A stretch of DNA of 64,000 bases from a virus. Lineage: Duplodnaviria > Heunggongvirae > Uroviricota > Caudoviricetes. The translations under genes and the position numbers were made by a program. The notes below the pieces were generated by a model that was not told where the DNA came from, ran no database searches, and worked only from the letters and a program-made list of their open reading frames with translations. Positions 25,052 through 63,755 of the stretch are shown here, piece by piece (position 1 is the stretch's first letter; every line of letters begins with the position of its first letter). The stretch lies in the IMG/VR virus record IMGVR_UViG_3300021399_000121, positions 43,502 through 107,501 of that record; one strand, written 5' to 3'.

Positions 25052-25064
25052 GTTAATTATAAAC

Positions 25065-27016: not shown

Positions 27017-27038
27017 TTAAACGAATGGGGATTTTATA

Positions 27039-29342: not shown

Positions 29343-29349
29343 TATAAAT

Positions 29350-30110: not shown

Positions 30111-30117
30111 ATTTTAT

Positions 30118-30197: not shown

Positions 30198-30201
30198 ATA
30201 T

Positions 30202-44257: not shown

Positions 44258-44449
44258 ATGAAAAGAAATAAAACCGTGAGTGTTTCGGTTTCAGAACAAG
44301 AGCTTCAAGCTTGGAAAGATGCTGTGCCGCAAACACAATATAAATCTGTAAGTGAGTTTGTACGTGAAGTAATTAATATGACTATTGAGGTTATTTATTC
44401 AAATGAGGGTAAACAGATGGTAATTCAAGTTGAGGATTGGGATCATTAA
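44258..44449 (+). CDS. Ribbon-helix-helix (CopG/ParG-like) DNA-binding protein.
   Basis: KRNKTVSVSVSEQELQAWKDAV is the typical RHH beta-strand-helix start; 63 aa. Confidence 0.45.
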   Translation: MKRNKTVSVSVSEQELQAWKDAVPQTQYKSVSEFVREVINMTIEVIYSNEGKQMVIQVEDWDH

Positions 44450-44465
44450 TTATGTTTAATAAAAA

Positions 44466-44577
44466 ATGTCCCAAAAGTATCTATTGAATTTTTATTTGAG
44501 CAAAACTGTCCCAAAAGTATCTAATGAAATTAAGTAAAATGTCCCAAAAGTATCTACTGACTGTCCCAAAAGTATCT
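44466..44577 (+). repeat. Iteron array of four 17-bp direct repeats, TGTCCCAAAAGTATCTA, followed by two copies of TACTCATATATA.
   Basis: Copies at 44466-44482, 44516-44532, 44539-44555 and 44561-44577. Confidence 0.7.
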
Positions 44578-44649
44578 AACCTTATTACTCATATATACTC
44601 ATATATATTACTCAAGGATTTTTAAATTTAGAAAGGTAAGATACTAATT

Positions 44650-45891: not shown

Positions 45892-46260
45892 ATGGCCGAG
45901 AAGAAGATCACCATCGCTGAGAAGTTTGCTGCTACCATCGCTATCCTTGAGGGTGCTGAGCCTGAGATCGAGTTCGACGCAGTTGATGCAGTCGAGTTCC
46001 TGAAGGATCGTGCGGAGAAGGCCAAGTCCAAGCCGCGTGAGCGCAAGGTTAAGCCTGAGACCGCTAAGTTCCGTGAGGATGTAGGAGAGTTCGTCCTGCA
46101 TCAGCCTGAGCCTGTAACTGCGAAGATTGTTGCTGAGGCTCTCGGAGTTTCCACTCAGAAGGCATCTGCGGCTCTGCGGTTCCTGGTCGCTGAGGGTGAG
46201 GTTGTTGCCCATGACGGCGAAAAGGCTCGCGACGCCAAGACTTACGAGATTGCTCGCTAG
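45892..46260 (+). CDS. GC-rich small HTH-like protein. It is a paralogue of genes 48033..48398 and 49709..50029.
   Basis: All three share the architecture ITIAEKFAATIAILEG / KSKPRERKVKPE / IVAEALGVSTQKASAALRFLVAEG. GC is about 55% against a 35% background. Confidence 0.45.
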   Translation: MAEKKITIAEKFAATIAILEGAEPEIEFDAVDAVEFLKDRAEKAKSKPRERKVKPETAKFREDVGEFVLHQPEPVTAKIVAEALGVSTQKASAALRFLVAEGEVVAHDGEKARDAKTYEIAR

Positions 46261-46935: not shown

Positions 46936-47621
46936 CTTTTCTTTTATGTGGTGCGGTGCGGTGCGGTGCAGCTGTCTAAAAAACTTTAAACAAATGTAAT
47001 ACTTTTTGGTGAACGGTATTAAATTTGCCGCGGATGGTAAGAATCGCTCTAGACGAATGTAATAAAGATATGATATAATTAATCTTAGAGATTAATTAAT
47101 ATATAAATATATATTTCTATATTATTATTATAGTTATATATATTTCTAATCCCCTAATATAATATATGTTGCGTTTCTCTCTCTTTTAATCTTATAATAA
47201 CTATTTAATAATATTTTATAACGATATTTTTACTAATAATTGCGTGCGGCCCTATACTAAAGTATAGGCCCTTACGCTTATACAGCGCCACTTTGAGCTA
47301 AAGCTCAAGGGCGCTTTTTTTATTGTCTAAAATTATTTTATTTAAAAAATAATTAAACTAAAACTATGCGGCGAACTTGACAAAAGCATAATTTTATGAT
47401 ATAATTAAAATGATTATTTTTTTAAAAAAAAAGAAGCTCTCAAAATAGCTTAAAAAAATCCCTAAAAAGTTGTTTTGTCCCTTGGCAAACCTTATGATAA
47501 ATGAGCTTTTTGCTGGGCAGAGAGCGCACTTCAGCTAAGCTAAAATAAGCTTTCCGACCAAGTAATCAGACCCTTTTTAAAATTGCGCAAATGAGAGCAA
47601 ATCAAGTAGTTTTCCACAACG

Positions 47622-47630
47622 TTATCCACA
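47622..47630 (+). promoter_or_regulatory. Perfect DnaA box TTATCCACA, with flanking TTTCCACA-like half-sites.
   Basis: GTTATCCACA at 47621-47630. Confidence 0.4.
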
Positions 47631-47750
47631 CTTTTTCCACCTATGGCCGCACGCCTTTATTTATTCTCTTCTCTTGGAATTTACTTGACAGAAACACAAA
47701 TTTATGATATAATTAAATGTTAATAAATTATAGCTGGTGTCAATAAATTT

Positions 47751-47839
47751 GCCTATAGCGAGTGCAAATTCGCGGCCTTATAGCGAGCACGGCTCGATGC
47801 GCCTATAGCGAGTGTCATCGTGAGGCCCTATAACGGCAG
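47751..47839 (+). repeat. Four direct repeats of GCC(T)TATAGCGAG (iterons or a centromere-like site).
   Basis: Copies at 47751, 47775, 47801 and 47825. Confidence 0.6.
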
Positions 47840-48032
47840 TCGTACATCCGTTCGGTTTTGGGATTTTAGTGAATTAATTGTGAAGATTTTGTGGAGATCG
47901 AATTTTTCCCTTGACTATGTGGTATAATTTCGCTAGAATGCGCCGCATTCTAGCGCTGAAAGGTTTAAGCAAAAGAAAAACCCCGCCATTACTGGGCGGG
48001 GTTCTCGCCATTACTGGGCGATTGGGTGAGAG

Positions 48033-48398
48033 TTACACCAGCTTGTAGCCGACGTAACGCCCTTTCACCTTTTCGACTTTCTCCACCTTGCCAGCGGAGA
48101 TAAGCACGGCCATAACCTTGGTGCATTTCTGCGAAGTCATGATGCCGTTGACATGCTCCATAATCCACGAGGTCAGCACAGGCTCACCCTCGGGCATAAC
48201 CTTGAGCACTTCACCAGCCAGACGGACGTTTTCCTTGGCCGCCTTGGACGGCTCATCAGACTTTACGCGAGGTTTGGTGATACTTGCTAGCATCTTGGCT
48301 GCGACCTCACGAGCATCCTCACGGGCGAGGGTTTCGTAGTCGCCATTTACGACAGCGGTCAGGACTTCAGCGCGGGTGATGGTGATGTTCTTAGCCAT
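48033..48398 (-). CDS. GC-rich HTH-like paralogue (MAKNITITRAEVL...).
   Basis: The start was trimmed to the ATG behind the conserved leader. The ORF track frame was extended upstream. Confidence 0.45.
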   Translation of the reverse strand: MAKNITITRAEVLTAVVNGDYETLAREDAREVAAKMLASITKPRVKSDEPSKAAKENVRLAGEVLKVMPEGEPVLTSWIMEHVNGIMTSQKCTKVMAVLISAGKVEKVEKVKGRYVGYKLV

Positions 48399-48639
48399 AA
48401 TCGGCTCCTTTCGGTTGTGGGTGAGAACTTTTTTCTCTCTCCCTCTGACAGTTAATATATTACCAGAGATTGCCGCAGGGGTCAACAAAATTTTGTGTCT
48501 ACACATTCTCTCCATAATTTCAGGATTTAAAACAAGCCTCTGACCTGGGGTTTTGGCGATCGATTTTTTTCCATGCCGGCACAAGGGCAAATTCGCTTGA
48601 TTCCGCCGGAATCAAGCGCTGAAAGGGTTCTAGATAGCA

Positions 48640-48668
48640 AAAAACCCGCCTTTTTGGCGGGTTTTGCT
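48640..48668. terminator. Bidirectional rho-independent terminator.
   Basis: AAAAAACCCGCCTTTTTGGCGGGTTTTGCTTT. Confidence 0.6.
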
Positions 48669-49367
48669 TTAGAATTGCTGGAAACGCTTTGAAATTTCTT
48701 TCCAATGGGGATTGTGTAAGCACATTCCAACAAAATCTGAATCAAATTTGCGCTTACGAGAGAGAATTTTGCAGAAAATGAAGGCTTCTATTTCGCAATC
48801 TTCGCGGGCGGTGTGTTTTTCTTCAAATTCAGGCGCATTTTTCAAATATTTGTAAACCGCTTCGGCGCCTGTCTGCGGATGGCCTTTTGCAGTGGTCAGG
48901 CCATGTACCGCGCAGAATTTCAGATAGTTTCGACTATTGCACAGGACGGACAAAGCCATATTCCAAATGTCCATGTATTTGACCTTAGATTTAAAGAAGT
49001 CCTCATATCCAAAATATTTGGCGGTCTTGGTCAGATGCGAAGCGTCAAACCCTGCATTGTAGGCGCACACGGTAGCCTTAAAAGCTTTTTGCACTTTGTT
49101 AATCGTGGAACGAATTTCTGCGAAGGGGAGAACTGTAAACGCTTCGGTTCCCATGAAAAGCTCAAAGTAATATTGAGCGATTTTAGTTTTAGTAAATGGG
49201 TCGTTGAACATGTCAAGCGTTTCAGGGTGATTCATGAACTCTTCACAGACAAAGCTACCCTCAGCGACCATGTTACCCTTGCGGTCGATTACCTTGTAAC
49301 CAAAGTCGAAAACCAGGTCGTTGCACGTTTCAGTGTCAAGAATCATGAAGAACTTTTTGCTTGCCAT
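48669..49367 (-). CDS. DnaQ-like DEDDh 3'-5' exonuclease.
   Basis: Exo I ILDTETCND, Exo II YNAGFDASHL and Exo III HTAREDCE. Confidence 0.55.
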   Translation of the reverse strand: MASKKFFMILDTETCNDLVFDFGYKVIDRKGNMVAEGSFVCEEFMNHPETLDMFNDPFTKTKIAQYYFELFMGTEAFTVLPFAEIRSTINKVQKAFKATVCAYNAGFDASHLTKTAKYFGYEDFFKSKVKYMDIWNMALSVLCNSRNYLKFCAVHGLTTAKGHPQTGAEAVYKYLKNAPEFEEKHTAREDCEIEAFIFCKILSRKRKFDSDFVGMCLHNPHWKEISKRFQQF

Positions 49368-49708
49368 TTTATTTCCTTTCTCTCTCTGACAGTTAATATA
49401 TTACAGCATATGCCGCGCATAGTCAAGCATTAATTTCGGGATTTTGTTTCTTCATAATTTCTTCACAATCGATCGTTTTGTTTTTCCCTTGAGCGTAAAA
49501 AGGCAAATTCGCTCGCTTCCTGCGTAAGCGAGCGCTGAATAAAAAAACTCCCGCGTCCTGTGCGCACAGGCTGATAGCGGGAGGGAGTCTATTCTTCGGG
49601 CACCTTACCATTCCCTTTTGTTTGGCGGGGCTACCGCATTAATAAACTGTTTAATCACCTCTTTTGGATTGTGGGCGGGGAATTTCACCCCGCCCTGTTT
49701 AGATTGGT

Positions 49709-50029
49709 CTAAAGCTTGTAAACTTTGACCTTTTCGGTCGTGGGAATCTCTTCCCACCCCATTGCCTTGCAGATGGCATTTGCCTTGGGTTTCGAGACCT
49801 CCAGAATTTCAGCCACATTTGCAGCCTTAAAAGTCTCTTCATCCCAGACCTCGGCGAACTTTTCACCAAGGGCGATGTTCGCATCATGCTTTGCCGTGTT
49901 AGCCTTGCGGGGACGCGGCTTCGTTACCTGAGCGTACATCTTCTCCAGAACCTCTACTGCTTCGGCATTCTCAACAGCAGCAATCGCGATTTCCAGAGCT
50001 TCCTTGCGGGTCATCTTCTTCTCGGCCAT
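49709..50029 (-). CDS. HTH-like paralogue (MAEKKMTRKEALEIAIAAVEN...).
   Basis: The start was trimmed to the ATG behind the leader AGGAAAATGACATG. Confidence 0.45.
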   Translation of the reverse strand: MAEKKMTRKEALEIAIAAVENAEAVEVLEKMYAQVTKPRPRKANTAKHDANIALGEKFAEVWDEETFKAANVAEILEVSKPKANAICKAMGWEEIPTTEKVKVYKL

Positions 50030-50746
50030 GTCATTTTCCTTTCTTTCGTGGGGAGGTTTTCCTTTTTTCCTCTCCCCTCCTGACACTTAGTATATTACTC
50101 CTGTTGCCCCTCAGAGTCAAGCAAAATTTTCGAGAATCTTTCCCTCCATATTTCCTTCACAATTGCGGTTGTGCCGGCGAATGAGCTCCTGACCTGGGGA
50201 AATGGGATCTTCCTGATGGGTTTAAATGTGAGTGATCTAGTCAACTTTTTCCCTAGTGCGTTTAAAGGGCAATTCGGTCGTTTGCGCCGCAAACGACCGC
50301 TGAAAGCAAATCGCCCTGCCGACCTGACGTGCAGCGGGGCGATAAGTTTTAATTTACCAAGCACGATATTGCTTTTCTGCAATTTCGCGATACCTGCCAT
50401 TTACAGTATTGCGGAAGATACGCCACAGTTTAAAGAATGGGTTTCTAGTTCTAAAGCCGTGTGCCCACAAGAACCAAAAGTTTTCAATTGACTTTTTCTG
50501 TGTCCAAGCAGTAGCAGCACGAATCATTTTGTCTCTTTCAGTAAACATAATTTACCCCACAATCAGAATCGAAATTACCACAAAGATTTTTCAGTTAATT
50601 TTAACCATTCAAAATTACAGTTACGGCAATACTCACAATCATCAGGATACCAAGAACAATCTACCCGTTCAAGTTTAATTAGTCTTTCAACTTCTTTTTG
50701 ACGTTTTTTTGCAAGTCGTTTTTGTTCTTTTTTACTTGGCATAATC

Positions 50747-51043
50747 TTACCCCACAATCAGAATTGAAATTACCAGTCCAGCGGTGAGAGCAGTCAGACA
50801 AGCGTTTTTGATTTTGTCGGCTGCGGGGCGCTCCAAGTAGAAATCACGACCAAGAGCAATGAGGTTTGCGGCCAACCAAATGAGCTGTGCAACTAGTGCG
50901 AGGTCAAAGCGGACGAGCACCTGACCGATAATGGTCAAACCCAGACCCAAGAGTTGAAGATTCTCAACCAGTGCTACGTGCTTGCGGCTTGCCAGTTTGT
51001 TTGCTTGCTTCTCAGTCATTTTTAGTTCCTCTCTCTCTGACAA
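50747..51043 (-). CDS. Small membrane protein with two or three TM helices.
   Basis: ORF track entry; follows the conserved leader CTGTCAGAGAGAGAGGAACTAAAA. Confidence 0.45.
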   Translation of the reverse strand: MSEREELKMTEKQANKLASRKHVALVENLQLLGLGLTIIGQVLVRFDLALVAQLIWLAANLIALGRDFYLERPAADKIKNACLTALTAGLVISILIVG

Positions 51044-51166
51044 TTACATAGTATCATATTGATGGCATAATGTCAACTAATTTTTTAAAATTTCTTTGTT
51101 TCTATAAAATCCTTACAATGGAGCCAAGGCATAAAAACCCCTCGTTTGAGGGGTTTTAGTCATTGT

Positions 51167-51448
51167 TTAATTATTAGTAATTATTATTTGCCAATCATTC
51201 CCCCAATAGGGCTCAATGCTCAATATTTTGTAATTAAACCATCGTTTTATGCAAATAGGGCAATTATCTTTTTCGTTAGTCCAATTAATCATATTACCAA
51301 TTCTTTGTTCAGAGCTTGCTGAATAATCCCAATCTTCAATATTTTTGTTCAAATAAGTTTGATTATCGGATACGATAAAAAGATATATTGTAGCGTCATC
51401 ATCAAGTTCGTTTTTTTGTTCTGTTAGCCAATTTTGCAAGCTCATCAT
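51167..51448 (-). CDS. Hypothetical 93-aa protein.
   Basis: ORF track entry; conserved leader. Confidence 0.45.
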   Translation of the reverse strand: MMSLQNWLTEQKNELDDDATIYLFIVSDNQTYLNKNIEDWDYSASSEQRIGNMINWTNEKDNCPICIKRWFNYKILSIEPYWGNDWQIIITNN

Positions 51449-52179
51449 CTTAGTTCCTTTCTCTCTCTCAGTGATTACATCTTACACTAATTGCGGCGTG
51501 GTGTCAATTAGAATTTCAGGATTTTTTTGTCTCTACAGAATCTTCACAATCGCGATCGATCTTTTCTGGCCCGGGTGTAATGGTAAAATCGTGCGCTTTG
51601 GCCGAAAGCGCACGCTAAAAGCACTTAGGGCGGGTCACTACTCCCGCCCTCCCGTTGCATCACTTTTTATTTTAACGCCAAGAGCAACGCTGGACAACGA
51701 ACTTGGCGAGTGAACACTAAAGAGAAGCCCAGAGCTGGCACAAAATAGGGCCAAAAATCAAGCTGATAAAAACGAGATACACAACACATACAACTGGCAC
51801 GGCGATTTTCATAATTAGTCCTTCCAAAAGAAGTGGCGTAGGTGGAGATTGCCTAGCGCCCCGCTCAGGTTTAAAGAGGTTGTCTGACTGCCCCTACATG
51901 GAGGTCTTACTGCACATAGCACCTTGGGTGCCCCTCGGGTCTTACCCGTCTCCGAGCTCCGTCCTCTGACACTGTTAATATTACAGGAGTGCGGCCCATT
52001 TGTCAACCAGAATTGGTGTCTCCATAGGTTCTTCACATTTCAGGATTCCGATCGATCAGTGAGTGCGGTTTGTGCCGGTGATTAAATCTCTGACCTGCGG
52101 AAATAGCGAAAATCGTTCGCGTGGGCCGCACGCGAACGCAACCAGGATGGCTTTCTGGCTGCGTTCTGCGGTTTTTGGT

Positions 52180-52356
52180 TTAGACTTCCACATCCTCTAC
52201 AAAATCGCCATCTTCATCATAAATATCTGCGTGACCTCCGCCCATTTCGCGCAATTCAGCTTCGACCGCATTAATCAAAGACTTGTAGTTGTCATAATAG
52301 AAATAACTGCTGCCGCAATCATCGATGCCGTCAAATTCTACATAGTAAGTATTCAT
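52180..52356 (-). CDS. Small acidic 58-aa protein.
   Basis: Conserved leader GGAAAGAGGATG. It is absent from the ORF track because it is shorter than 60 aa. Confidence 0.35.
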   Translation of the reverse strand: MNTYYVEFDGIDDCGSSYFYYDNYKSLINAVEAELREMGGGHADIYDEDGDFVEDVEV

Positions 52357-52442
52357 CCTCTTTCCTTTCTCTTTACCTTACGGGTAAATTGTATCATAGA
52401 AAACAGTAGAAGTGAAGACCCCTTGCGGAGTCTTCACATTTT

Positions 52443-52640
52443 CTACACGTAGTATTCTTTACCAGAGGGGGTTACAATTCTCGCGACTTGCACATGATTA
52501 ACATAAACGAACTTTTTAGCTTCATCCATGACTTCAACGATGCAAGTTGCTTTGTATTCCCGCACACAGGAGCGACCAATAAAATCTTTGTACTTGAGCT
52601 GATAAACAACCTTTTTTGCGACTTTCTTTTTCATGGTCAC
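52443..52640 (-). CDS. Small basic 65-aa protein.
   Basis: ORF track entry; leader AGAGAAGGGAGTGACCATG. Confidence 0.4.
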   Translation of the reverse strand: MTMKKKVAKKVVYQLKYKDFIGRSCVREYKATCIVEVMDEAKKFVYVNHVQVARIVTPSGKEYYV

Positions 52641-52667
52641 TCCCTTCTCTCTTGGACTACGTCCAGT

Positions 52668-52916
52668 TTACCAGAGGTCTACCACAATATCAAGGTCGTT
52701 TTTGTCCTTCACATCTTCTCCACAATCGCGAAGTTGTGGCAAAAGATTTTCGCTTAATGGCATAGTAATTTCTGCCCCGACAAAGTCTTCTGAATCGAGA
52801 ACAATCTCTTCAGCAGCAATACGACGTTCGATTTCTTGAATAGCATCAGCCATAGTATCGGCTTCAATTACAATACGACGTTCGAGAGTTTCTTTGTAAT
52901 CAAAAGTGAATTTCAT
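52668..52916 (-). CDS. Hypothetical 82-aa protein.
   Basis: ORF track entry; leader AAGGAGAATTCATT. Confidence 0.4.
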   Translation of the reverse strand: MKFTFDYKETLERRIVIEADTMADAIQEIERRIAAEEIVLDSEDFVGAEITMPLSENLLPQLRDCGEDVKDKNDLDIVVDLW

Positions 52917-53458
52917 AATGAATTCTCCTTAACGATGACGATTGACCAACATACTGACTAAAAAAGGAGGAATAAATCCAGCTAAAAAGGGAACGAGTAC
53001 ATTACAAATAAATGCAGTCATAATTAATCCTCCTGCCCTTCTTCATCTTCATCTTCATACCGATGAGTAAAAATACTTTCAATCTCTCCATTCTTCATTT
53101 TTTGCTCAAAAAATTTTTGCGATTCTTGACTTTTTTTCTGAAGAAATTCGAACAGCGTCATGATTAATCCTTTCCTTTCTCTCTTGGATACATAATATCA
53201 TAGTCAGTTTCAGGATGCAATACTCTTCACAAAATCGTCACAATTGGAGTGATTTTTTTCAGCCTCGCGATAAACGTAATTTCGCTCGCTTGCGCCGCAA
53301 GCGAGCGCCCAAAGGTTTGGGCGCTCTTTTCATTTTTATTTTTTAAAAATTTTATTTTGCCAAATTGCAATTTCATCTTCATTCAAAAAGAGGGCTATTG
53401 CAATTATGATTATGAAAATGAATGCAATAATCAAATCAGAAAGTAACATTTCAATTTC

Positions 53459-53671
53459 CTAAGCTTTAAATTTGTTTCCCCAACCATCAGACAAATACAG
53501 CGGTTTAATAGTGTCTTTACAATTCCCTATAAAGGAAACAGCTTTATTAATGGCTTCTGCAACACCCAAGCATTTTCCGAGGTCGGTTTGACGATTGACC
53601 CATTCATTTTTATAGCTATAGTAAATCGCATAATGGAGCTTGTAATTGCCAACCCATTCCCGTTTCACCAT
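53459..53671 (-). CDS. Hypothetical 70-aa protein.
   Basis: ORF track entry; conserved leader. Confidence 0.4.
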   Translation of the reverse strand: MVKREWVGNYKLHYAIYYSYKNEWVNRQTDLGKCLGVAEAINKAVSFIGNCKDTIKPLYLSDGWGNKFKA

Positions 53672-53875
53672 TTCAGTTCCTTTCCTTTAACTTACAAATA
53701 AATTGTACTATAGATTATTTCCATTGTCAAGAAGAATTTCAGGATTTGGCTTCTTCATAATTACTTCATAAGTGCGGAAGATCTTTTTTCTGATGTAATT
53801 AAATGTAAAATCGTCCGCTGTGGCCGACAGCGGACGCGGAGCCTTTTTTGACTCCGCGTCCAAAAGAGAGAAGAA

Positions 53876-54082
53876 CTAGAAAAGTCTTTCGAGGTCTGCC
53901 CAGCTGTAGCCAATCGCAGGGGAGAGAATCAAGCGGCCAATTCCGATTTGCCATTTGAATTGCTCTTCTGCCTTCTTTTTAGCTTCAAGCAAATCTTCCT
54001 TGGTTGCGAAGAAGTCTACTCGCTGTTCATACAACTCAAAGGTGTCCTCATCTATCCATTCCCAAACCAGCATGAACTCCAT
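53876..54082 (-). CDS. Hypothetical 68-aa protein.
   Basis: ORF track entry; conserved leader. Confidence 0.4.
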   Translation of the reverse strand: MEFMLVWEWIDEDTFELYEQRVDFFATKEDLLEAKKKAEEQFKWQIGIGRLILSPAIGYSWADLERLF

Positions 54083-54277
54083 GATTTTTCCTTTCTCTCT
54101 CTCCCTGATGAATACATAATACTACAAAACATTACAGGATGCGGCATTTCCACATAATCTTCACAATTGCGATATTTTCTTTCTCTACCGGGTGTAAAGT
54201 GAATTTCGTTCGCGCTGGGCCCAGCGCGAACGCTGAGAGAGTTGCGGCTCTCTCGCGTTCATGATTTAAGCTCTTTT

Positions 54278-54724
54278 TTACAGCAGCTCCCGCAAAGCTG
54301 CAATCATCTTTTTAGTATCGGATGCATCTATCGTTTCACCCTTCCAAGCATTCCGCACGTCTGAATTATCGTCTACCAGAATAGAGTCTTTCACATTCCG
54401 CACATAATGTTTAGGAGTACCATATTTCACAACATGAAATTCAGAAAATACGCCAGGGAAGTATTCATCGCACCATATCTTTTTGGCTTTGCGGGTACGC
54501 CTACAATATTCACGGCTACCACCCATAGCACCCCAAGAGATAACACCAAGAATAAAACCTGCGGCCAGCAGTGCATTGAAAAGTTGCCGCAACTCTTCTA
54601 TATCAAAGATAACCGCGCAATCTTTATATGGAGTTGTATCTTCTACTTTCAGCATTTCCAGCCATCCCTCATATCCGTAGAGGTCTGCAATTGTTCCGTC
54701 CATGTCAAAATAGATAGCCTGCAT
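54278..54724 (-). CDS. HAD-superfamily phosphatase.
   Basis: FDMDGTIADL matches HAD motif I (DxDGT); 148 aa. Confidence 0.5.
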   Translation of the reverse strand: MQAIYFDMDGTIADLYGYEGWLEMLKVEDTTPYKDCAVIFDIEELRQLFNALLAAGFILGVISWGAMGGSREYCRRTRKAKKIWCDEYFPGVFSEFHVVKYGTPKHYVRNVKDSILVDDNSDVRNAWKGETIDASDTKKMIAALRELL

Positions 54725-55264
54725 TTGATTTCCTTTCTCTCAGTGATTACATACTACCATAATTCGTCTCTTGGAGTTATGGGATTCGCATATTCATAAT
54801 ATATACATATATTGCGAGTACGATTTTTCCCTGTTCATGCAAAAGGGCAATTCGGCCATTTGCTCTGAAAAACGCGCCGCAAATGGCCGGTTAAGCCTTA
54901 TACGCTTATAATTACATTATATCATAGCTTGAATTATATGTCAACCAGTTTGTCAAAAAATTTCTTATATTCACAAAATTCACACATTTGACCTTATAGT
55001 ACTGTATGTTTGCTTTATGTGCTTTATATGGAGATTTTGTGGAGATATTGTGTAGTTTCAGGATTGTAAAATAATTGTGTAGATATTGTGAAGACTCTTG
55101 ATTTTTCTCTATGTATATGGCACAATATCTCGCCCAACTTGTGGAGATTTTGTGGAGATATTGTGAAGATAATTGTGGAAATATTATGTTTTCAATGTGC
55201 AATTATTGAGGAGAAGCGACCCCTTTGTGGGGCCGCCCCCCTTTAAAACATGTGAATATTGAGC

Positions 55265-55561
55265 TTACAACTCAACAATAGAGATAAACTCATCGCCGTT
55301 CGGGTAACGCACGCCACCGCACATATACCCGAACATGTCCGCCAATTCGTCCAACGTCTCAATATAATCATCGTCGCTAGGAAACAGGCCATCAAACACG
55401 ACTTCGCAGCCCTGATACGAATACAGAATGTTTTCGTAAGCATACAGAGACAAGACATTGTCGCCGTATGTATTTGTATGCGAGTAGTTCATCATTTCGT
55501 CGAACAGGCTCTCAAGGTGATTTTTAACGCTTGCGTTGTTGGTGTTCATTTGGTAGGTCAT
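55265..55561 (-). CDS. GC-rich small protein (MTYQMNTNNASVKN...).
   Basis: Trimmed start; the 5' leader hairpin is TTGACCCGAAGGGTCAA. Confidence 0.4.
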   Translation of the reverse strand: MTYQMNTNNASVKNHLESLFDEMMNYSHTNTYGDNVLSLYAYENILYSYQGCEVVFDGLFPSDDDYIETLDELADMFGYMCGGVRYPNGDEFISIVEL

Positions 55562-56032
55562 CTTAGTTCCTCTCTCTTTCGGTTGACCCTTCGGGTCAAT
55601 TATAGCGTTGTCAATACTTTTTTTCAATGTTTTTTAAAATTAATCGGTGAGCGGTTAAATTAATCGGTAAATGGTAATTTTAGGATAGTATAAAATAATT
55701 GTGTAGATTTTGTGTAGACTATTGTTTTTTCTTTGCAAGTGTGGTATAATTTTTCGCTGAGATATGTAGATTTTGTGGAGATTTTGTGGAAATAAATTCA
55801 TAGAAAAAACATAATAATTTACATAATAAAAACATAATTAATTCATACAATCCTCATAATTATTTTACATAATCTCCATAATCAGGATACAAAATAAATT
55901 GTGTAAATGTTGTGAAGAGTCTTGATTTTTCTCTACATATGTGGTATAATATTTCGCCAATTGTGGAGATTTTGTGAAGATTTTGTGGAGATAATCGTGG
56001 GGAGGCCGAAGCCTCCCCTCATGGTCATGTTG

Positions 56033-56311
56033 TTAGAGTTCTTGAACCCTTACATATTTGAACATGTACCAGTATCCATTAATAAGTGCGGACTCATGCT
56101 CAATAAACAATTCATATCCAAACTCTGGGAGAATGTCGGCAAGTTCGTACATGTCAATGTACCCCGTTTTCTCACTCTGTAACACTTGCCATGTCCCACT
56201 GTTTTGCAATTCATCCATCGAAGCCCACGTGTTTGCGCTAGCGTCTGTTTCGACCTGATGCGCGAGGATTGTCTCTATAATCTCGTTGATGTAGTTTTTC
56301 ATGTTCGCCAT
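56033..56311 (-). CDS. GC-rich small protein (MANMKNYINE...).
   Basis: Trimmed start; the leader hairpin is GGCCCTACGGGCC. Confidence 0.4.
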   Translation of the reverse strand: MANMKNYINEIIETILAHQVETDASANTWASMDELQNSGTWQVLQSEKTGYIDMYELADILPEFGYELFIEHESALINGYWYMFKYVRVQEL

Positions 56312-56799
56312 TTGAGTTCCTTCCACTCGGTTTTTGTTTGGCCCGTAGGGCCATTTTACTCTTGTCAATAGGTAAAATCAACGTTTTTTAAAATTAATCG
56401 GTAAACGGTTAAATTAATCGGTAAATGACAATTTAAGATAATATAAAATAATTATGTAGATTTTGTGGAGATTTTATAAAGATTTTGTGAAGATTAATTC
56501 ACAGAAAAAACATAATAAAAGCATAATTAATTCATACAATCTTCATACAATCTCCGGTTTTAGGACACATAATCTACATAAAATCTACATACTATCTTCA
56601 TATTTTCTTCACAATTGCGTGGTATAATTTTTTCGCCGAGATATGCAGATTTTGTGAAGATTCTGCATTTAGTCTTGATTTTTTTCTACAGGCGTGGTAT
56701 AATTTTTTCGCTAGTCATGGAGATTTTGTGGAGATATTACATTTAATATTGACAAATAAAAAGCCCCTCATTTGAGGGGCTTTTGAATCACAATTCATT

Positions 56800-57132
56800 T
56801 TAGCGGCTGTTGTACGTTTCACGCGCTGGACGATTCATAAAGTCGTTGAGGTCTTTCAACAAGGGGAGTAATTCAGAGTTGAAAAATGACTCATCGTCCC
56901 ACACAGTAGCAGCAGTTTGCTTTGCGAGGAAGTGAAGCGCCATCCCAGCAGTTTTACCCTCAGTGTGCGCTTGAGGGTGGTCATAAGTGTACAGGCTCGC
57001 AAGGTAACCGCACTCATAAGGAGAAACCCAAATTTCTACATTACCACGAGTAGCGATATAGCGCATGCCCTCGCGCGTGTTCAGAGCTTCAAATGTTCCG
57101 TTGTTCTTCGTTGCTTTAGTCATTTCAATCAT
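56800..57132 (-). CDS. Hypothetical 110-aa protein.
   Basis: Leader hairpin GAACCCTACGGGTTC. A bidirectional terminator lies at 56760-56786. Confidence 0.45.
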   Translation of the reverse strand: MIEMTKATKNNGTFEALNTREGMRYIATRGNVEIWVSPYECGYLASLYTYDHPQAHTEGKTAGMALHFLAKQTAATVWDDESFFNSELLPLLKDLNDFMNRPARETYNSR

Positions 57133-57618
57133 CCTTCCTGTTGAACCCTACGGGTTCATTGTAGTCTTGTCAATAGGTAAAATCAATATTCTACATAAAT
57201 CTCCATACAAATAACATAATTAAAATTACATACAATCTACATAATTAATTCACATAATCTACATAATGAAAACATAATTAATCCATACGATCTACACAAT
57301 TAGGACACAAAATAAATTGTGGAGATTTTGTGTAGGCTCTTGACATTTTTCTGCGGGTGTAGTATAATATTTCGCCAATTGTGGAGATTTTGTGGAGATT
57401 TTGTGGAGATTAATCCACAGAAAAAACATAATTAATTCACACAATCTACATAATAAAAACATAATTAATTCACACGATCTACACAATTTCAGGATACTTT
57501 AATTGTGTAAAAGTTGTGGAGTTTTTGTGGATTTTTTATGGAGAGCGCGTCAAAATGGTAAAATCGCTCGTTTGCCCTATGCGTGGGTCCGCAAACGAGC
57601 GGCCAGCCCTTTCAAGCT

Positions 57619-57768
57619 GGCCAGGTTGTATTCAGCTACACTCTAGAACGGAGCGTAGGCCAGTTCTCCAGCGTTGGGCTGTGCCGCAATCCACATCTCG
57701 CAGTCAACCTCACAGACCAACCCTTCCTTGACGACCTTGCCAGTAGCCTTCTCGAATACTGTCCACAT
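57619..57768 (-). CDS. About 49-aa protein, MWTVFEKATGKVV...APF. It is paralogue 1 of a pair.
   Basis: Conserved leader AGGAAAGGACAGGACATG. Its sequence aligns with the product of 57960..58091. Confidence 0.35.
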
Positions 57769-57959
57769 GTCCTGTCCTTTCCTCTCCTGCTGACAGGTCT
57801 ATTATACACCTGTGCCCCTGCCGCATGTATGAGAATCAGGATACTCCACAATCTCTACACAACTATATAGATCGCTTGATCTTTCTCTTGGTGCGTGTAA
57901 AGGACATTTCGCTCGCCTAGGCCCGTAGGCGAGCGCTGGGAGGTCTTACTATCCCAGTG

Positions 57960-58091
57960 CTCTGAGCAGGACTAGAATGGCGCGCAATCCAGTTCGTCTC
58001 TATTCTCCTGCGCGTCAATCCACATCATCGCATCTACCTCAGTCTCGAACCCGTCCGCTACGACCTTGCCCGTGTTCTTGTTGAAGACCGT
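57960..58091 (-). CDS. About 43-aa protein, MWTVFNKNTGKVV...APF. It is paralogue 2 of the pair.
   Basis: Forms the C-terminal part of ORF 57972..58385; follows its own leader and promoter. Confidence 0.35.
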
Positions 58092-58302
58092 CCACATATT
58101 CTTTCCTCTCTCTCTTTCTGACATAATCATTGTACCACAAGTCGTGCCGCATGTAAAGATAGATTCAGGACTCTCCACAATCTCTACACAACTCTTTCTC
58201 TTGGATGATCTTTCTTGTGGTGCGCATAAACGATAATTCGCTCGCTGCGGCCCACAGCGAGCGGCCAGGTCTTTGTAGTTTACTGTGCGGTACTGGGGCA
58301 GG

Positions 58303-58526
58303 CTAGTTGCCCAGCCCCATAGCGTCCAGCATATCCCACACTTTGTAGTCATCTGCAGTGGTTCCTGTGGGAGTGAAGTCTGCAATCTCTACTATCCGTA
58401 CGCTTCCGCGCTTGTAGCACGAGTATGTACGAGCTTCTGCCGCATTGTTCTTGCAGGTGGAGAGAGAACCCCACCAGTGCAGGCAGGTCTCGGTGGAGTT
58501 GGCGAAGGTGGCGATGACTGCGAACA
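58303..58526 (-). CDS. GC-rich small protein (MFAVIATFANSTETC...).
   Basis: Trimmed start behind the leader GAGAGAAAGGATACAACATG. Confidence 0.4.
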
Positions 58527-59212
58527 TGTTGTATCCTTTCTCTCTGACAAGTACATAATACACCTTAACTGTATCTGTGTACAGTCTCTTCACAATCTTT
58601 TCATAAGTTTCAGGATATGAAAGATCATATTAGAATATGTATTTGGAAACTATTTTTATTTCTAGTATGCGTAAGTGACAATTCGCTCGTGTTGGCCCAA
58701 CACGAGCGAGCATCGTGAGAGTGTGCACGAGAGAGCGTGCGCGCAAGACCGCACAAAGCCTGCAAAGACGTGCCAGCAAGCGAGACAGCCGGGCTGCACG
58801 AACTGTCCTCTCTTGGGGTGATGGGAGGGTGTAGACATTGTTGCTATTATTTTATCGGTCGAGTATAGAAGACTGTTACATCATTATGATGATAAATAAA
58901 CTTCCTAGTAGGGGGGGTGATTATGGGATTTTTTAATATTGACTTGTGAAATGTCTTTTGCCTCGCAATCCAAAGAACGTACTTTAAATTTTAAATTTCA
59001 AGAACGTACTTAAGAATCCAAATCAAAATTTCCTATATTAAAATTTCCCAATATATCAAATTTCGGAAAACTTACCTCTCTAAAAATTATATTATATAGC
59101 TTAAAATTTTATGTTTCTATCCAAAAAAGTCATAGACAGTGTTGCTTTGTCAGTGATATAATAAGAATAGAAATAAAAGATTTGAGCTTAGCTTAAATCG
59201 GAAAGGAAGCAG

Positions 59213-60310
59213 ATGACAAAAAAATTAGATTATTCACTTAAAACACCAAAAGAGAGAGCTAAATGTGTTGAAGAAGTCATAGCATCCACTCCTAAAGAAC
59301 AATTAACACAAACATATCTTAATTATTTAGGCGATTATATATTATTTATTAGAGAAAAGGGGCAAACAAAAGGACATAACCTTCTTACTAAAAATAGAGA
59401 AACTATAATTAAAAGAAGAGAAAAATCATATGAAGATATTGTTAATAGTCTAGAAGGTGGTGAAGATGCTCTCCATAACCTTATAAACAATGATAAAAAT
59501 CAATTGTTAGATTATAAAGAAAAAATATCAGAAGAAGAAGCTTTAGCTGACCCGAGATTTCAAGAAAAAATGCGAACTATACAATCTCTTAAAAAAGCTT
59601 TTGATGCGGCAACTGATAGTTCTAAACGTTTTAAATTAAAACAGCAAATTATTGAAACATGACAAGAAATTTATATTATTAAAGCATCATACAAACAAAC
59701 AACAACAGGACGACTTTCTCCGCAAATGCGGCAAATGGGATATATAGATTTAGAAGAAAAAGTTGAGGTACTCCCAGATGGTAAGCTAGATATTAAATCA
59801 ACATTAACTCTTTTAAAACCAGAACATATATCTTTTTTATTAAATTATTATGCTCAACTAAAAGAAGAAATAAATGAAGATCTTAATAGCGATTTGCGGT
59901 GATTATTAGTTGATTTAGAAGATTTAGTTCATAGGACTTTGTCTGGACCAGATCAAACAGCTGTAAACAATGAAATTCTTTATGACTTAATTATTTGAAA
60001 AATAGATGGATTAAAAAATAAAGAAATAGTTGAACTTATGCGGCAAAGATATGGAGTGGTTCATTCAGAACAATATTATTCTACACTTTGACGCAAAAAT
60101 ATTCCCAATCTTTTAGCAAGACAAGCTCAAAAAGAATGACTTATTTGACATTTTTCTCAAGAAGAATATGGGGATTGGAAAAAATGTACAAAGTGCGGCG
60201 AATGGAAAATCGCAAGTCCTTATTTCTATGACCGTTCTCCAATTTCTAAAGATGGCTATTATCCTCAATGTAAGGAGTGTCGTTCTACTCGTAAAAAAAA
60301 TAAAAAGTAA
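59213..60310 (+). CDS. TGA-recoded late protein with a C-terminal zinc ribbon; six in-frame TGA codons.
   Basis: ORF 59213..59662 continues through the TGA at 59660 and five further TGA codons to TAA at 60308-60310, ending KCTKCGEW...CKECRS. Confidence 0.45.
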
Positions 60311-60324
60311 AGGAGGAAGGATAT

Positions 60325-61536
60325 ATGCCAGAAAAAATTATTTGTACACAGTGCGGCAGAGAAAAAGCAGAAAAAGAATTCTTTATGATGAAAACTCATG
60401 AACGTTATCCTGTTTGTAAAACCTGCCTTACTATGTATATAGATAATACAGATCCATCAACTTTTAAATGAATCCTTGAAAAATTTGATGTACCCTATAT
60501 TGAGCGAGATTGAAAAGAAGAAGCTCAGAATGCCTATGATAAGAATCCCGCAAACTTTTCAGGAGCTTCAGTTATTGGTCGCTATTTGCGGCGTATGAAT
60601 ATGACGCAATATCGTAATCTCACCTATGCAGATACAGCACGTCTAGCCGCAGAAGAAGAAAAACGTCAACAAGAAGCAGCCGCACGAGTAAGTTTAGCAT
60701 CTGAAGATGAGCAAGAAGAATTTATGAATCTTCAAGCTAAACTTGATGCGGGAGAGATTTCTCAAGCTGAATTTGATACCCTTAATCCTCTTATGCGGGG
60801 AGTAGAAAGACAGCAAAGCCGCAAATATACTTTTGACCAAGAGCAGATAGGTATAAATGAAGATGATATTTTAGCAGAATTAACTGAAGAAGATAAAAAG
60901 ATGCTCGCTACTAAATGAGGTATAGTGTATAAGCCTTCTGAATGAGTTCATATGGAAGAAACATATACAAAGTATGCTAATGAATATGAGCTTAATGTAG
61001 ACCGTGAACTTACTCTTAAACAAATCTGTAAACTTGAATTAAAGATGGATCAAGCTTTAGATGTTGGTGATACAGGGGCATATAAATCATTACAGCAATC
61101 ATATGATGCTCTTCGCAAATCATCTAAATTTACAGAGGTTCAAAATAAAGAAGGTCAAACACGTTATCTTGATTCTATCGGAGAATTGGTACAATTCTGC
61201 GAACGCGAAGGTGGGTTAATTAATCAATTACCAGACCCAGACGAGTATCCCGAAGATAAAATAGATTTTACAATTAAAGATATGAAAGCATATATCCGTA
61301 ATCTTGTAACCAATGAACTTGGTCTTGGTGATTTGATTGAATCATATGTTAAGAAACTTGAAGATGCGGAGAGAGAAAAAGAAAAATCTCTTGATGCGGG
61401 ACTATACACATCTATCGAAGAAGAACTTGCGGATCAAGTAACGCCGCAAGAAGAAATAGAATTCCAAGAATACCTAGATAATGAAGTAGAAGAAGAAGCT
61501 GCTCGTCTCTTGGAAATGCTTGGTGGTGATGCATAA
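60325..61536 (+). CDS. Putative small terminase subunit with an N-terminal zinc ribbon, TGA-recoded.
   Basis: RBS AAGGAGGAAGGATAT precedes ATG 60325. It joins ORFs 60586..60918 and 60952..61536 through four sense TGA codons. It lies immediately upstream of the large terminase. Confidence 0.35.
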
Positions 61537-63293: not shown

Positions 63294-63385
63294 AAAAATT
63301 TTTTAGTATTTTTATCAAAATCTAATAATTCTTATCTCGTGAAATTTATATATATTAGAACGTAAGATGTTAAGGAGGTGGTTAA

Positions 63386-63745: not shown

Positions 63746-63755
63746 GAGGTGCGGT

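What the first reader, a model, noticed from the sequence alone, without database searches (positions are those of the whole stretch)
48400..58650. Stereotyped minus-strand expression cassette repeated about 15 times
Each small minus-strand gene is preceded by the same ordered set of elements, reading on the minus strand. First comes a terminator, then the conserved hairpin. Next is a GATCG ATTGTGAAGA(N)T box, then an AAATCCTGAAA box. A -35 TTGAC(A/T) follows, then a 17-nt spacer and a T(G)nTAATAT -10 element. The transcript leader is CUGUCAGAGAGAGAAAGGAAAU, followed by the ATG. The two boxes resemble operator sites for a common regulator. The leader, with its long AG-rich RBS, is nearly invariant.
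Basis: seen in the sequence. Interest (0 to 1): 0.6.

Follow-up and report, generated by a model that had tools for sequence, protein, structure and literature searches.

The report
Repeated early-gene promoter cassettes in phage
An uncultivated large phage expresses about 17 small early genes from copies of one composite control module (hairpin, phased repeat boxes, host-type promoter, strong ribosome site), and the same module marks the points where related phages have swapped genes; the general design is known from T4-like phages, but several parts are new.

Summary
Between 47.9 and 58.7 kb the minus strand carries 17-18 sigma-70-type promoters in front of 23 small genes, most without a known family. 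It also carries 14 copies of one covarying hairpin, found nowhere else in the 64 kb. There are 70 'A boxes' (T[GA]TG[AGT]A[GA]A) against about 7 expected, mostly as pairs 11 bp apart. There are 8 exact ATCCTGAAA boxes against about 1 expected, and an AG-rich leader (13 matches against 0.4).

Box order varies, and four promoters lack the hairpin.

New points:
- The A boxes are tandem repeats in helical phase with the -35 element.
- The 'GATCG' box and the sequence 3' of the hairpin align with an antisense consensus promoter. That promoter is intact in distant relatives and in arrays at 55-57.5 kb.
- Relatives from gut and rumen metagenomes keep the module but carry different or reordered genes, with homology breaks at module edges.

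Best reading: these are host-RNA-polymerase early (host-takeover-like) cassettes, insulated from each other and co-regulated through the boxes by a phage DNA-binding protein. They are functional analogues of the T4-type PeSL cassettes. The function of the hairpin and the identity of the box-binding protein remain unresolved.

The parts
47931..58709 (-). Whole early-cassette region: 17-18 promoters, 23 small genes, 14 hairpins
   Evidence: GC is 40-48% here against about 30-36% in the flanks. None of the 23 genes contains a TGA codon, as stop or in frame.
58683..58709 (-). Hairpin H copy 1. The other 13 copies are at 58263-58239, 57935-57910, 57601-57565, 54889-54853, 54232-54207, 53836-53812, 53307-53283, 52138-52114, 51614-51590, 50299-50275, 49534-49510, 48618-48594 and 47955-47931.
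   Evidence: covariance-model scores 30-63 bits; covariation; dG -14 to -20 kcal/mol.
49470..49509 (-). Example of the roughly 40-nt extension 3' of H (AATTTGCCTTTTTACGCTCAAGGGAAAAACAAAACGATCG). It is present next to all 14 hairpins, and its reverse complement aligns with an antisense promoter.
   Evidence: a profile HMM of the extension hits only beside H in the window; no conserved second stem.
49449..49467 (-). Tandem A boxes TGTGAAGAaatTATGAAGA. Other pairs start at 58605, 58190, 57861, 54165, 53770, 53244, 52037, 51550, 50161 and 48516.
49434..49442 (-). B box (here ATCCCGAAA). Exact ATCCTGAAA copies lie at 58616, 57495, 55064, 53745, 53216, 52046, 51522 and 48526 (5' coordinates).
49398..49426 (-). 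Promoter TTGACT-17-TAATAT of the canonical cassette. Other promoters span 58583-58555, 58157-58129, 57829-57801, 57186-57158, 56381-56353, 55627-55599, 54944-54916, 53730-53702, 53220-53192, 52416-52388, 52006-51978, 51507-51479, 51076-51048, 50120-50092 and 48485-48457. By eye, -10 elements lie at 54756-54751 and 54121-54116.
49368..49397 (-). Leader attaaCTGTCAGAGAGAGAAAGGAAATAAA, ending at the ATG at 49367
48669..49367 (-). 232-aa cassette gene, used as the marker to find relatives. It carries DTET...YNxxFD...HTAxxD motifs.
   Evidence: The exonuclease assignment is my reading of the motifs; Pfam gave no hit.
48033..48398 (-). Last cassette gene: a 121-aa protein with an N-terminal helical domain and a winged helix. 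Candidate box binder.
   Evidence: 114 homologues, all unnamed or given hypothetical or implausible names; pLDDT 91.3.
49709..50029 (-). 106-aa paralogue that shares the N-terminal domain. Its leader contains a hairpin.
54950..57560 (.). Three larger cassettes (genes 57123-56800, 56311-56033, 55561-55265). They are surrounded by dense A-box arrays in both orientations and contain plus-strand promoters that have no gene downstream.
   Evidence: This block is absent from L001 and partly present in L019.
57340..57368 (+). Antisense consensus promoter TTGACA-17-TATAAT, with two A boxes upstream and three downstream. Others lie at 55091-55132, 55727-55756, 55922-55950, 56675-56703 and 47906-47932.
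51813..51977 (-). Unusually long leader (164 nt) ahead of the 31-codon ORF at 51812-51717
   Evidence: no Rfam family; z-score 0.40.

Best explanation
The region is the early, host-takeover-type gene block of a large lytic phage of a Gram-positive (Bacilli-like) host. It is built from about 17 self-contained expression cassettes that share one composite regulatory module of roughly 200 bp.

Proposed mechanism:
1. On DNA entry, the unmodified host RNA polymerase with its housekeeping sigma factor fires from the near-consensus -35/17/-10 promoters.
2. Each transcript starts a few bases before TGTCAG and has a leader of about 25 nt. Its AGAAAGGA stretch pairs with the UCCUUUCU 3' tail typical of Firmicute 16S rRNA, giving strong translation. 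The genes contain no TGA, so they read the same before and after the phage's TGA recoding takes effect.
3. An ordinary terminator and the GC-rich hairpin H sit between cassettes and insulate them from each other.
4. The tandem A boxes are 11 bp apart and start at about -11, -21, -31 or -41 from the -35 hexamer. Together with the B box they are operators for one or more phage-encoded DNA-binding proteins. The best candidates are the winged-helix paralogues made from the last cassettes. Binding modulates all the promoters together, most likely shutting them off at the end of the early phase.
5. Because the module is repeated, it also serves as a stretch of homology for recombination. Genes are gained, lost and reordered as cassettes.

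Shown here: the elements, their statistics, their conservation, their phasing, the covariation in H, and the mosaic breakpoints.

Inferred: that the promoters are active and early, that the box binder is a repressor, which protein it is, that H insulates, and the recombination mechanism.
For: - Promoters and fixed leader length.
- Leader enrichment.
- A-box enrichment and 11-bp spacing. A boxes lie upstream of -35.
- Helical register across 86 non-identical promoters from 7 contigs (Rayleigh R = 0.70 at period 10).
- B-box enrichment and strand bias.
- The module is conserved in L001, L013 and L019 (hairpin type), in L002 and L004 (simplified), and in L015, L016 and L018 (antisense-promoter type).
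- Hairpin covariation (8 of 11 pairs changed on both sides, 95% paired, 0 of 500 shuffles as high). Exactly 14 copies on one strand.
- Most cassette proteins have no known family.
- No TGA in the 23 cassette genes, against 18 in-frame TGA in the plus-strand ORFs at 59-64 kb.
- Mosaicism: 45 of 52 homology-block edges lie in modules or within 5 nt of gene ends, although only 50% of the sequence is of that kind. Block edges fall at the 5' base of H and at the ATG. Gene order is permuted in L004.
- Winged-helix candidates.
- Precedents: PeSL cassettes (PMC2839356, PMC4122927), the SPO1 host-takeover module (PMC6873191), and 58 sigma-70-type early promoters in a Kayvirus (PMC7698491).
Against: - There are no expression data, so timing and promoter use are inferred.
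- The promoters are already near consensus, so an activator is unnecessary, and a repressor bound upstream of -35 is an unusual geometry.
- The recognition helix of the winged-helix family is almost invariant, yet the upstream box differs in L015 and L018 (TATGTTAC type). This does not fit simple co-evolution of that protein with the A box.
- H has only 2-4 T in the 8 nt after the stem, so it is a poor canonical terminator. In most cassettes a proper terminator already precedes it.
- H stems are almost purely Watson-Crick, with no excess of G-T over A-C mismatches. That is not what an RNA helix usually shows.
- Breakpoints at gene boundaries are common in phage mosaics, and homology-block edges shared between relatives are not independent events.
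Confidence: 0.55

Rival explanations
1. The hairpin H and its extension form a DNA-level element derived from an antisense promoter, not an RNA terminator. On this view it is a hairpin or cruciform recognised by a phage protein. It could be a recombination or cassette-boundary site, loosely like an integron attC or the protein target suggested for PeSL stem-loops. Alternatively it could be a retooled antisense start site used to silence or insulate the upstream gene.
For: - The reverse complement of the extension aligns along its length with intact antisense promoters (cTTGACt-17-TGgTATAAT-tttCGCC) of L015, L018 and the window arrays. H sits exactly where that transcript would start.
- H-rich contigs have few intact antisense promoters, and the reverse also holds.
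- Stem pairs change only on both sides and are 95-97% Watson-Crick, with G-T 7 against A-C 6.
- Two homology blocks begin exactly at the 5' base of H, independent of the upstream gene.
- The altered -10 (TAAAGG, TAAACG or TAATGG) is itself conserved rather than decayed at random.
Against: - No recombinase or hairpin-binding protein has been identified.
- The extension motif occurs nowhere else in the 64 kb, so it is not a general phage promoter class.
- The altered -10 lacks the essential final T, so sigma-70 use is unlikely.
- Perfect palindromes can be maintained by template-switch mutation without any selection.
- The mismatch counts are small.
Confidence: 0.2
2. The A boxes are low-affinity binding sites for the host replication initiator DnaA. 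The arrays at 55-57.5 kb would then be origin-like or DnaA-titrating sequences, and the pairs at promoters would couple early transcription to DnaA.
For: - The reverse complement of the A box, TCT(C/T)CACA(A), resembles the DnaA box TTATNCACA.
- Arrays in one orientation with an 11-bp period match the format of low-affinity DnaA arrays in oriC (my own knowledge).
- A true DnaA-box pair lies next to the region at 47610-47630 and is conserved in relatives.
- In a cyanobacterial contig, TGTGGAGAA repeats sit among TGTGGAAAA boxes.
Against: - None of the 70 A boxes fits TTWTNCACA. Position 3 is always C.
- About a third of the boxes also carry T in place of the critical C at position 8, the TATG variants.
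- A consistent deviation of this kind argues for a different, specific binder.
- The box is altered in L015 and L018, although the DnaA box is nearly universal.
Confidence: 0.08
3. Nothing is regulated. The cassettes are simply diverged tandem duplicates of one strong promoter and ribosome-binding-site unit, and the boxes are inherited flanking sequence with no binding function.
For: - All modules can be aligned with one another.
- Large phages of Firmicutes commonly have dozens of consensus early promoters without known operators (PMC7698491).
Against: - The boxes persist in contigs whose marker proteins are only 49-67% identical, while the surrounding intergenic sequence has changed.
- The boxes keep a helical register with -35 even though they sit at four different distances.
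- The boxes multiply into arrays in both orientations around promoters that have no gene.
- Hairpin stems covary.
Confidence: 0.1

Closest known systems
PeSL (promoter-early stem-loop) regulatory cassettes of T4-like phages (Arbiol et al. 2010, PMC2839356; Comeau et al. 2014, PMC4122927)
   Same: - A repeated composite intergenic motif with a sigma-70-type consensus promoter, a stem-loop, and a Shine-Dalgarno sequence plus start codon at its 3' end.
- It is concentrated in a variable region of small genes without known families.
- Insertions, deletions and replacements between related phages have their breakpoints in the motif.
   Different: - The phage lineage is unrelated (no hit in 50,697 phage records) and the host is probably Gram-positive.
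- The module is about 200 bp rather than about 100 bp.
- The stem-loop lies about 90-190 nt upstream of -35, not inside or overlapping the promoter. It has conserved flanks and covarying stems rather than polyG/polyC tracts.
- There is an ordinary terminator in addition to the stem-loop.
- There are phased tandem 11-bp boxes, a second box, and an antisense promoter or its remnant.
- Mini-circle formation and promoter or terminator activity have not been tested.
SPO1 host-takeover module, and the early-promoter sets of Kayvirus and Herelleviridae phages (PMC6873191, PMC7698491)
   Same: - A block of roughly 11-12 kb of small early genes in many short operons.
- Each operon has a strong host-type promoter and a strong ribosome-binding site.
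- Promoters are of the TTGACW-17-TATANT type; a TAATAT -10 variant is also noted there.
   Different: - No protein similarity was found here.
- The descriptions of those phages that I read mention no shared operator boxes, conserved hairpin or antisense promoters.
Repeat-array operators bound cooperatively by small dimeric DNA-binding proteins, such as R1 ParR-parC, pSM19035 omega heptads, TubR-tubC and AspA (my own knowledge; TubR and AspA also appear among the fold matches)
   Same: - Short direct repeats with a helical period, in variable number and orientation.
- The repeats flank or abut promoters.
- One protein controls several promoters.
   Different: - Those systems serve plasmid partition or copy control, not phage early genes.
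- No binder has been demonstrated here.
- The fold match is generic winged helix, with E about 0.02.

Membership tests
PeSL regulatory cassettes | Repeated intergenic motif containing a sigma-70-like consensus promoter | tested here: met
   17-18 promoters, several matching 10-12 of 12 positions; 65 promoter-like sites against 30.8 in shuffles.
PeSL regulatory cassettes | Stem-loop that is part of the same repeated motif | tested here: met
   14 hairpins that move together with the downstream promoter. Their position (upstream of the boxes) and composition differ from the five PeSL subclasses described in PMC2839356.
PeSL regulatory cassettes | Shine-Dalgarno sequence and start codon at the 3' end of the motif | tested here: met
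PeSL regulatory cassettes | Preferentially upstream of genes without known families, in a variable (hyperplastic) region | tested here: met
   Of 15 cassette proteins scanned, only one passes its Pfam threshold. Gene content differs between the window and L001, L013, L019 and L004.
PeSL regulatory cassettes | Breakpoints of insertions, deletions and replacements between related phages fall in the motif | tested here: met
   45 of 52 block edges lie in modules or within 5 nt of gene ends, against 50% of the sequence. The edges are not independent events.
PeSL regulatory cassettes | Shown promoter and terminator activity; formation of mini-circles | not testable with these tools
   Requires reporter assays and inverse PCR on infected cells.
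PeSL regulatory cassettes | Homology: an element of T4-like myovirus genomes | tested here: not met
   No nucleotide or protein match in the phage collection. It works like a PeSL but is not a homologue.
DnaA-box array | 9-mer fitting TTATNCACA or TTWTNCACA | tested here: not met
   Only 47610 and 47622 fit in or near the region. The A boxes read TCTNCACA, always with C at position 3.
DnaA-box array | Sites in one orientation, spaced about 11 bp apart | tested here: met
Intrinsic (Rho-independent) terminator, considered for hairpin H | GC-rich stem directly followed by a U-rich tract | tested here: inconclusive
   The stems are strong (-14 to -20 kcal/mol), but only 2-4 T occur in the first 8 nt after the stem. 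The lenient scan flags 6 of the 14.
Integron attC / gene cassette | Promoterless cassettes, imperfect attC with conserved R and L boxes, adjacent integrase | tested here: not met
   Every cassette has its own promoter, and the H stems are perfect. No integrase turned up among the 30 proteins scanned against Pfam, though not every ORF in the window was scanned.
Known RNA families (Rfam 15) | Score at or above the gathering threshold | tested here: not met
   Nothing in 46.8-59 kb reaches threshold. The best hits are ctRNA-like matches at E 0.23 on the plus strand, spanning H and the neighbouring terminator.

The most novel reading that the evidence does not exclude
Each early cassette carries a built-in antisense-facing device. 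In the ancestral form this is a consensus promoter placed back-to-back with the sense promoter across the operator boxes. In the window's lineage it has been rebuilt into a strictly Watson-Crick, covarying DNA hairpin fused to a conserved promoter-derived sequence. On this reading the hairpin unit is a new kind of cassette-boundary element. It would be recognised as folded DNA, or as the 5' hairpin of an antisense RNA. It would both insulate or silence the neighbouring early gene and define where cassettes recombine, making a promoter-carrying phage counterpart of the integron cassette system.
Probability: 0.15. Interest if true: 0.75.

Novelty: new variant of a known kind. Interest (0 to 1): 0.5.

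Why it matters
How uncultivated phages that recode a stop codon time their gene expression is largely unknown. This region gives a compact, testable rule set:
- one promoter and leader design;
- one phased repeat operator;
- one structure-conserved hairpin;
- early genes that avoid the recoded codon entirely.

It extends the PeSL idea, in which regulatory cassettes double as recombination linkers, from T4-like phages of Gram-negative hosts to an unrelated gut and rumen phage group. It also adds features not described for PeSLs: operator repeats, and paired sense and antisense promoters. The module could be used to find and delimit early (anti-host, anti-defence) genes in metagenomic phage contigs. 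The strong, insulated promoter and ribosome-binding-site units may be useful as expression parts for Firmicutes.

Tried and rejected
- Nucleotide and protein searches of the phage collection found nothing.
- Rfam gave no family for the hairpin, the leaders or the arrays.
- I looked for a second conserved stem in the hairpin extension. RNAalifold finds only H.
- I tested whether the extension is a phage-specific (middle) promoter also used elsewhere. Its profile HMM hits only beside H in the 64 kb, so that idea is weakened.
- I tested whether the hairpin is a canonical intrinsic terminator. The U-tract is too poor.
- I tested whether the A box is a DnaA box. It fails the consensus.
- I scanned bacterial and archaeal genomes for three A boxes in tandem, as a test of the host-regulon idea. 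It returned 46 contigs from very diverse taxa, including archaea. Most are perfect 11-bp tandem repeats, so the result is uninformative. Only L052 is a true relative of the phage.
- I considered GATC as a methylation-linked signal. GATC is not enriched; its observed/expected ratio is 0.66 across the window.
- The long leader at 51813-51977 is not unusually structured (z = 0.40).
- I looked for co-variation between the winged-helix recognition helix and the box variants. The helix is nearly invariant, so this gave no information.
- Pfam assigns a function to almost none of the cassette proteins.

Full report
CONTEXT

The window is part of a large phage-like genome with no relative among 50,697 deposited phage records, by DNA or by protein. 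It carries a ROOL RNA, 18 tRNA genes, two RNA ligases, a Gram-positive pilin-like protein and a teichoic-acid-type glycerophosphotransferase. The plus-strand genes at 59-64 kb give long reading frames only if TGA is read as an amino acid. The finding lies in a block of higher GC content (40-48% against about 30-36%) that is transcribed on the minus strand.

CHECK OF THE OBSERVATION

Each named element is real.

- **Hairpin.** A scan for inverted repeats followed by GAWWT found 14 hairpins, all on the minus strand between 47931 and 58709. A covariance model built from 23 distinct copies and run without filters over both strands of the 64 kb returned exactly these 14 full-length matches (30-63 bits). 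The only plus-strand hits were the palindromic stems themselves.
- **A box.** The 'ATTGTGAAGA' box, reduced to the core T[GA]TG[AGT]A[GA]A, occurs 70 times in 47.8-58.8 kb against 7.1 +/- 2.7 in simulations. Successive copies are most often exactly 11 bp apart. Elsewhere in the window the core occurs only as single copies inside coding sequence.
- **B box.** ATCCTGAAA occurs 8 times, all on the minus strand in this block, against 0.97 expected.
- **Leader.** GAGAGAAAGGAA with up to one mismatch occurs 13 times against 0.4 expected.
- **Promoters.** Promoter-like sites are twice as frequent as in shuffles and include perfect TTGACA-17-TATAAT matches.
- **Spacing.** For 17 promoter-led genes, the distance from the -10 element to the start codon is 27-34 nt in 12 of them.

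The claimed uniformity does not hold:

- The complete order (hairpin, two A boxes, B box, -35, -10, leader) is seen for the genes starting at 49367, 51448 and 53671, and with weaker boxes at 50029 and 54082.
- For 48398, 51812 and 58527 the B box precedes the A boxes.
- For 53161 the B box lies inside the promoter spacer.
- The genes at 57123, 56311 and 55561 use a second promoter class: TTGAtt-17-TAnAAT with TATTGACAA in the spacer and a hairpin at the start of the leader.
- The genes at 52356 and 51019 have no conserved hairpin.

1. **The A box is a tandem direct repeat.** Pairs lie just upstream of the -35 element. In 86 non-identical promoters from the window and six related contigs, A-box starts cluster at -41/-42, -30/-31, -20/-21 and -10/-12 relative to the -35 hexamer. 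This gives strong periodicity near 10-10.5 bp (Rayleigh R = 0.70). Tandem boxes and related sequences are not independent, so the nominal p-value should not be taken literally. The B box sits mostly at -15/-16, or upstream of the A boxes.

2. **The hairpin stems differ between copies but stay complementary.** Eight of 11 pairs show changes on both sides, 95% of cells are paired, and none of 500 shuffles or slid registers comes close.
   - Copies at corresponding positions in the window, L001 and L013 differ by compensated double changes, for example CGTGCGCTTT/AAAGCGCACG against CGTGCGCTTG/CAAGCGCACG.
   - No pair varies on one side only.
   - In a relaxed set of 58 hairpins, G-T (7) and A-C (6) mismatches are equally rare.
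   - The stems are stable (-14 to -20 kcal/mol), but only 2-4 T follow in the next 8 nt.
   - In most cassettes a conventional terminator with a T-run already lies just upstream.

Its reverse complement aligns along its length with a family of antisense promoters, cTTGACt-17-(TGg)TATAAT-tttCGCC.
   - These antisense promoters are intact in nearly every module of the distant relatives L015 and L018.
   - They are also intact in the window at 47.9, 55.09, 55.73, 55.92, 56.68 and 57.34 kb.
   - In the hairpin-type modules the -35 reads (T)TGATC and the -10 reads TAAAGG, TAAACG or TAATGG. The hairpin sits between the conserved CAG and CGAAA, exactly where the antisense transcript would begin.
   - Contigs rich in hairpins (window 14, L001 13, L013 10, L019 11) have few intact antisense promoters. 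L015 and L018 have 0-1 hairpins and 8-12 antisense promoters.
   - The extension motif is found nowhere else in the window.

4. **At 55-57.5 kb, three cassettes are embedded in dense A-box arrays in both orientations.** The plus-strand promoters there have two A boxes upstream and three or four downstream, and no gene follows them.

RELATIVES AND MOSAICISM

I used two marker proteins to find relatives: the 232-aa cassette protein and the 121-aa last-cassette protein. They recovered related contigs from animal gut and rumen metagenomes. All of these show a one-strand block of small genes ending in the 121-aa gene, followed by divergently transcribed genes.

- The tandem A boxes, the promoter and the TAATnGTCA... 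leader are kept in contigs whose marker proteins are only 49-67% identical.
- Against L001, the window is a patchwork of 82-87% identical blocks interrupted by unrelated genes.
- Block edges fall 2 nt before the ATG at 58527, at the 5' base of the hairpins at 54232 and 51614, in an A box (54151) and in leaders (54098). The module from 51619 to 51479 is shared while both neighbouring genes differ.
- Over four relatives, 45 of 52 block edges lie in modules or within 5 nt of gene ends, although such sequence makes up half of the region.
- In L004 the same genes occur in a different order.

WHAT THE CASSETTES ENCODE

- Most products have no Pfam family.
- One is DpnD/PcfM-like.
- The 232-aa protein has DEDD-type exonuclease motifs, by my reading of the alignment.
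- The 121-aa protein is a confident model (pLDDT 91.3) of an N-terminal helical domain plus a winged helix. Its structural neighbours are MarR, PadR, ArsR, AspA and TubR proteins, though only at E about 0.02.
- The 106-aa protein from 50029-49709 shares the N-terminal domain (hhalign 95%).
- The plus-strand protein from 45892-46260 is weakly related in the winged helix.
- None of the 23 cassette genes contains TGA, either as a stop (TAA 15, TAG 8) or in frame. The plus-strand ORFs at 59-64 kb contain 18 in-frame TGA.

HOW IT MOST LIKELY WORKS

I read this as the early, host-takeover-type block of the phage.

- Host RNA polymerase with its housekeeping sigma factor starts at about 17 strong promoters.
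- A short leader carries AGAAAGGA. This is complementary to the UCCUUUCU 3' end of Firmicute-type 16S rRNA (established knowledge, not tested here) and would drive translation.
- The terminators and hairpins isolate the units from each other.
- The phased tandem boxes and the B box give one or more phage-encoded DNA-binding proteins a common handle on all the promoters. Because the promoters are already near consensus, the likeliest effect is shut-off.
- The repeated module also provides homology for exchanging cassettes.

The first and last steps rest on sequence and comparative evidence. The regulatory step, its direction and the identity of the binder are inference.

The unresolved piece is the hairpin. 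Its strict Watson-Crick covariation, its conserved flanks, its origin at the start site of an antisense promoter and its co-migration with the downstream promoter all suggest more than a spare terminator. A DNA-level or antisense role is a serious alternative, to which I give about 0.2.

RIVAL READINGS

- **DnaA reading of the A box.** I considered this because the reverse complement (TCTNCACA) resembles TTATNCACA and because a true DnaA-box pair lies at 47610-47630. No A box fits the consensus, the deviation is invariant, and a third of the boxes carry a further critical mismatch.
- **Genome-wide scan.** A scan of bacterial and archaeal genomes for three tandem boxes returned mostly generic 11-bp tandem repeats from unrelated taxa. 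One real relative was binned with a Bacilli genome from rabbit gut, which is a weak hint about the host.
- **Neutral duplication.** This view is contradicted by the conservation, the phasing and the covariation.

COMPARISON WITH KNOWN SYSTEMS

The closest described system is the PeSL (promoter-early stem-loop) of T4-like phages. It is a repeated unit of about 100 bp with a sigma-70 promoter, a stem-loop that terminates transcription, and a Shine-Dalgarno sequence plus start codon. It sits upstream of genes without known families in hyperplastic regions, and it mediates modular shuffling and mini-circle formation (PMC2839356, PMC4122927).

All the sequence-level features of that family are met here. 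Homology is not, and the activity and mini-circle features cannot be tested. The present module is larger and adds phased operator repeats, a second box, a separate terminator, a structure-conserved hairpin with fixed flanks, and a sense/antisense promoter pair.

Functionally the block also resembles the SPO1 host-takeover module (PMC6873191) and the many sigma-70-type early promoters of Kayvirus (PMC7698491).

VERDICT

This is a real, well-supported repeated regulatory cassette. The general kind is known, and the variant is new and comes from an uncharacterised phage group. Interest is moderate. It would be higher if the hairpin and antisense unit proves to be a distinct functional device.

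Noticed in passing
window 59213-64000 (+) compared with 48033-58527 (-): The plus-strand genes, which include a terminase-like region, need TGA read as an amino acid. Translation table 4 gives ORFs of 603, 410 and 372 codons, against at most 196 under table 11, with 18 in-frame TGA. The 23 early cassette genes contain no TGA at all, as stop or as sense codon. No tRNA with anticodon UCA is present among the 18 tRNAs in this window.
   Followed up: partly
whole window, both strands: The pentamers GCCGC, CCGCA and TGCGG are 5.6-7.3 times over-represented (for example TGCGG 150 against 27 expected). The motif also sits in the hairpin loops and, by eye, in the spacers of at least 6 of the 17 early promoters (GCGGCA or GCCGCA). 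CCGG is depleted (observed/expected 0.37).
   Followed up: partly
window 47000-47900: An AT-rich intergenic stretch next to the last cassette looks like a replication origin. It has two perfect plus-strand TTGACA-17-TATAAT promoters (47377-47405 and 47685-47713), a true DnaA-box pair (47610-47630) and three or four CTATAGCGAG-type repeats (47.75-47.85 kb). The block is conserved in L004, L007 and L052.
   Followed up: partly
window 44450-44620: Four direct repeats of AGATACTTTTGGGACA lie upstream of the small plus-strand genes next to the 63-aa gene at 44258-44449, which is weakly ribbon-helix-helix/NikA-like. This is a separate candidate operator or iteron set.
   Followed up: no
window 55630-55700 and 56385-56450 (-): The second promoter class (genes 56311 and 55561) is preceded by two copies of (T)TTACCGATTAATTT. 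In addition, the leaders of genes 57123, 56311, 55561 and 52356 begin with a short GC hairpin directly after the -10 element.
   Followed up: no
window 21245-21821 (+) and 22610-30294 (+): A full-length ROOL RNA (331 bits) is followed by arrays of 18 tRNA genes.
   Followed up: no
window 53288-53339 and 54212-54272 (+): There are weak, below-threshold Rfam matches to a plasmid countertranscript RNA (ctRNA_pGA1, E 0.23). They lie on the plus strand and span the hairpin plus the neighbouring terminator. This is the two-hairpin shape an antisense RNA starting at H would have.
   Followed up: no
L052 (CANROQ010000024.1, 'uncultured Bacilli bacterium' genome bin, rabbit gut): This is a true relative of the phage. 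It has a winged-helix-type gene, the origin-like block and an A-box array. It sits in a Bacilli genome bin, which is a weak hint about the host.
   Followed up: partly
L032 4300-4400 (cyanobacterial genome JAVYJL010000001.1): TGTGGAGAA repeats lie interspersed with TGTGGAAAA and TGTGGAATA boxes in an intergenic cluster that looks like a set of DnaA boxes. This shows that the A-box core can co-occur with canonical DnaA-type boxes in a bacterial chromosome.
   Followed up: no
window 51813-51977 (-): A 164-nt leader precedes a 31-codon ORF that encodes a hydrophobic peptide. There is no Rfam match and its folding energy is ordinary (z = 0.40).
   Followed up: partly
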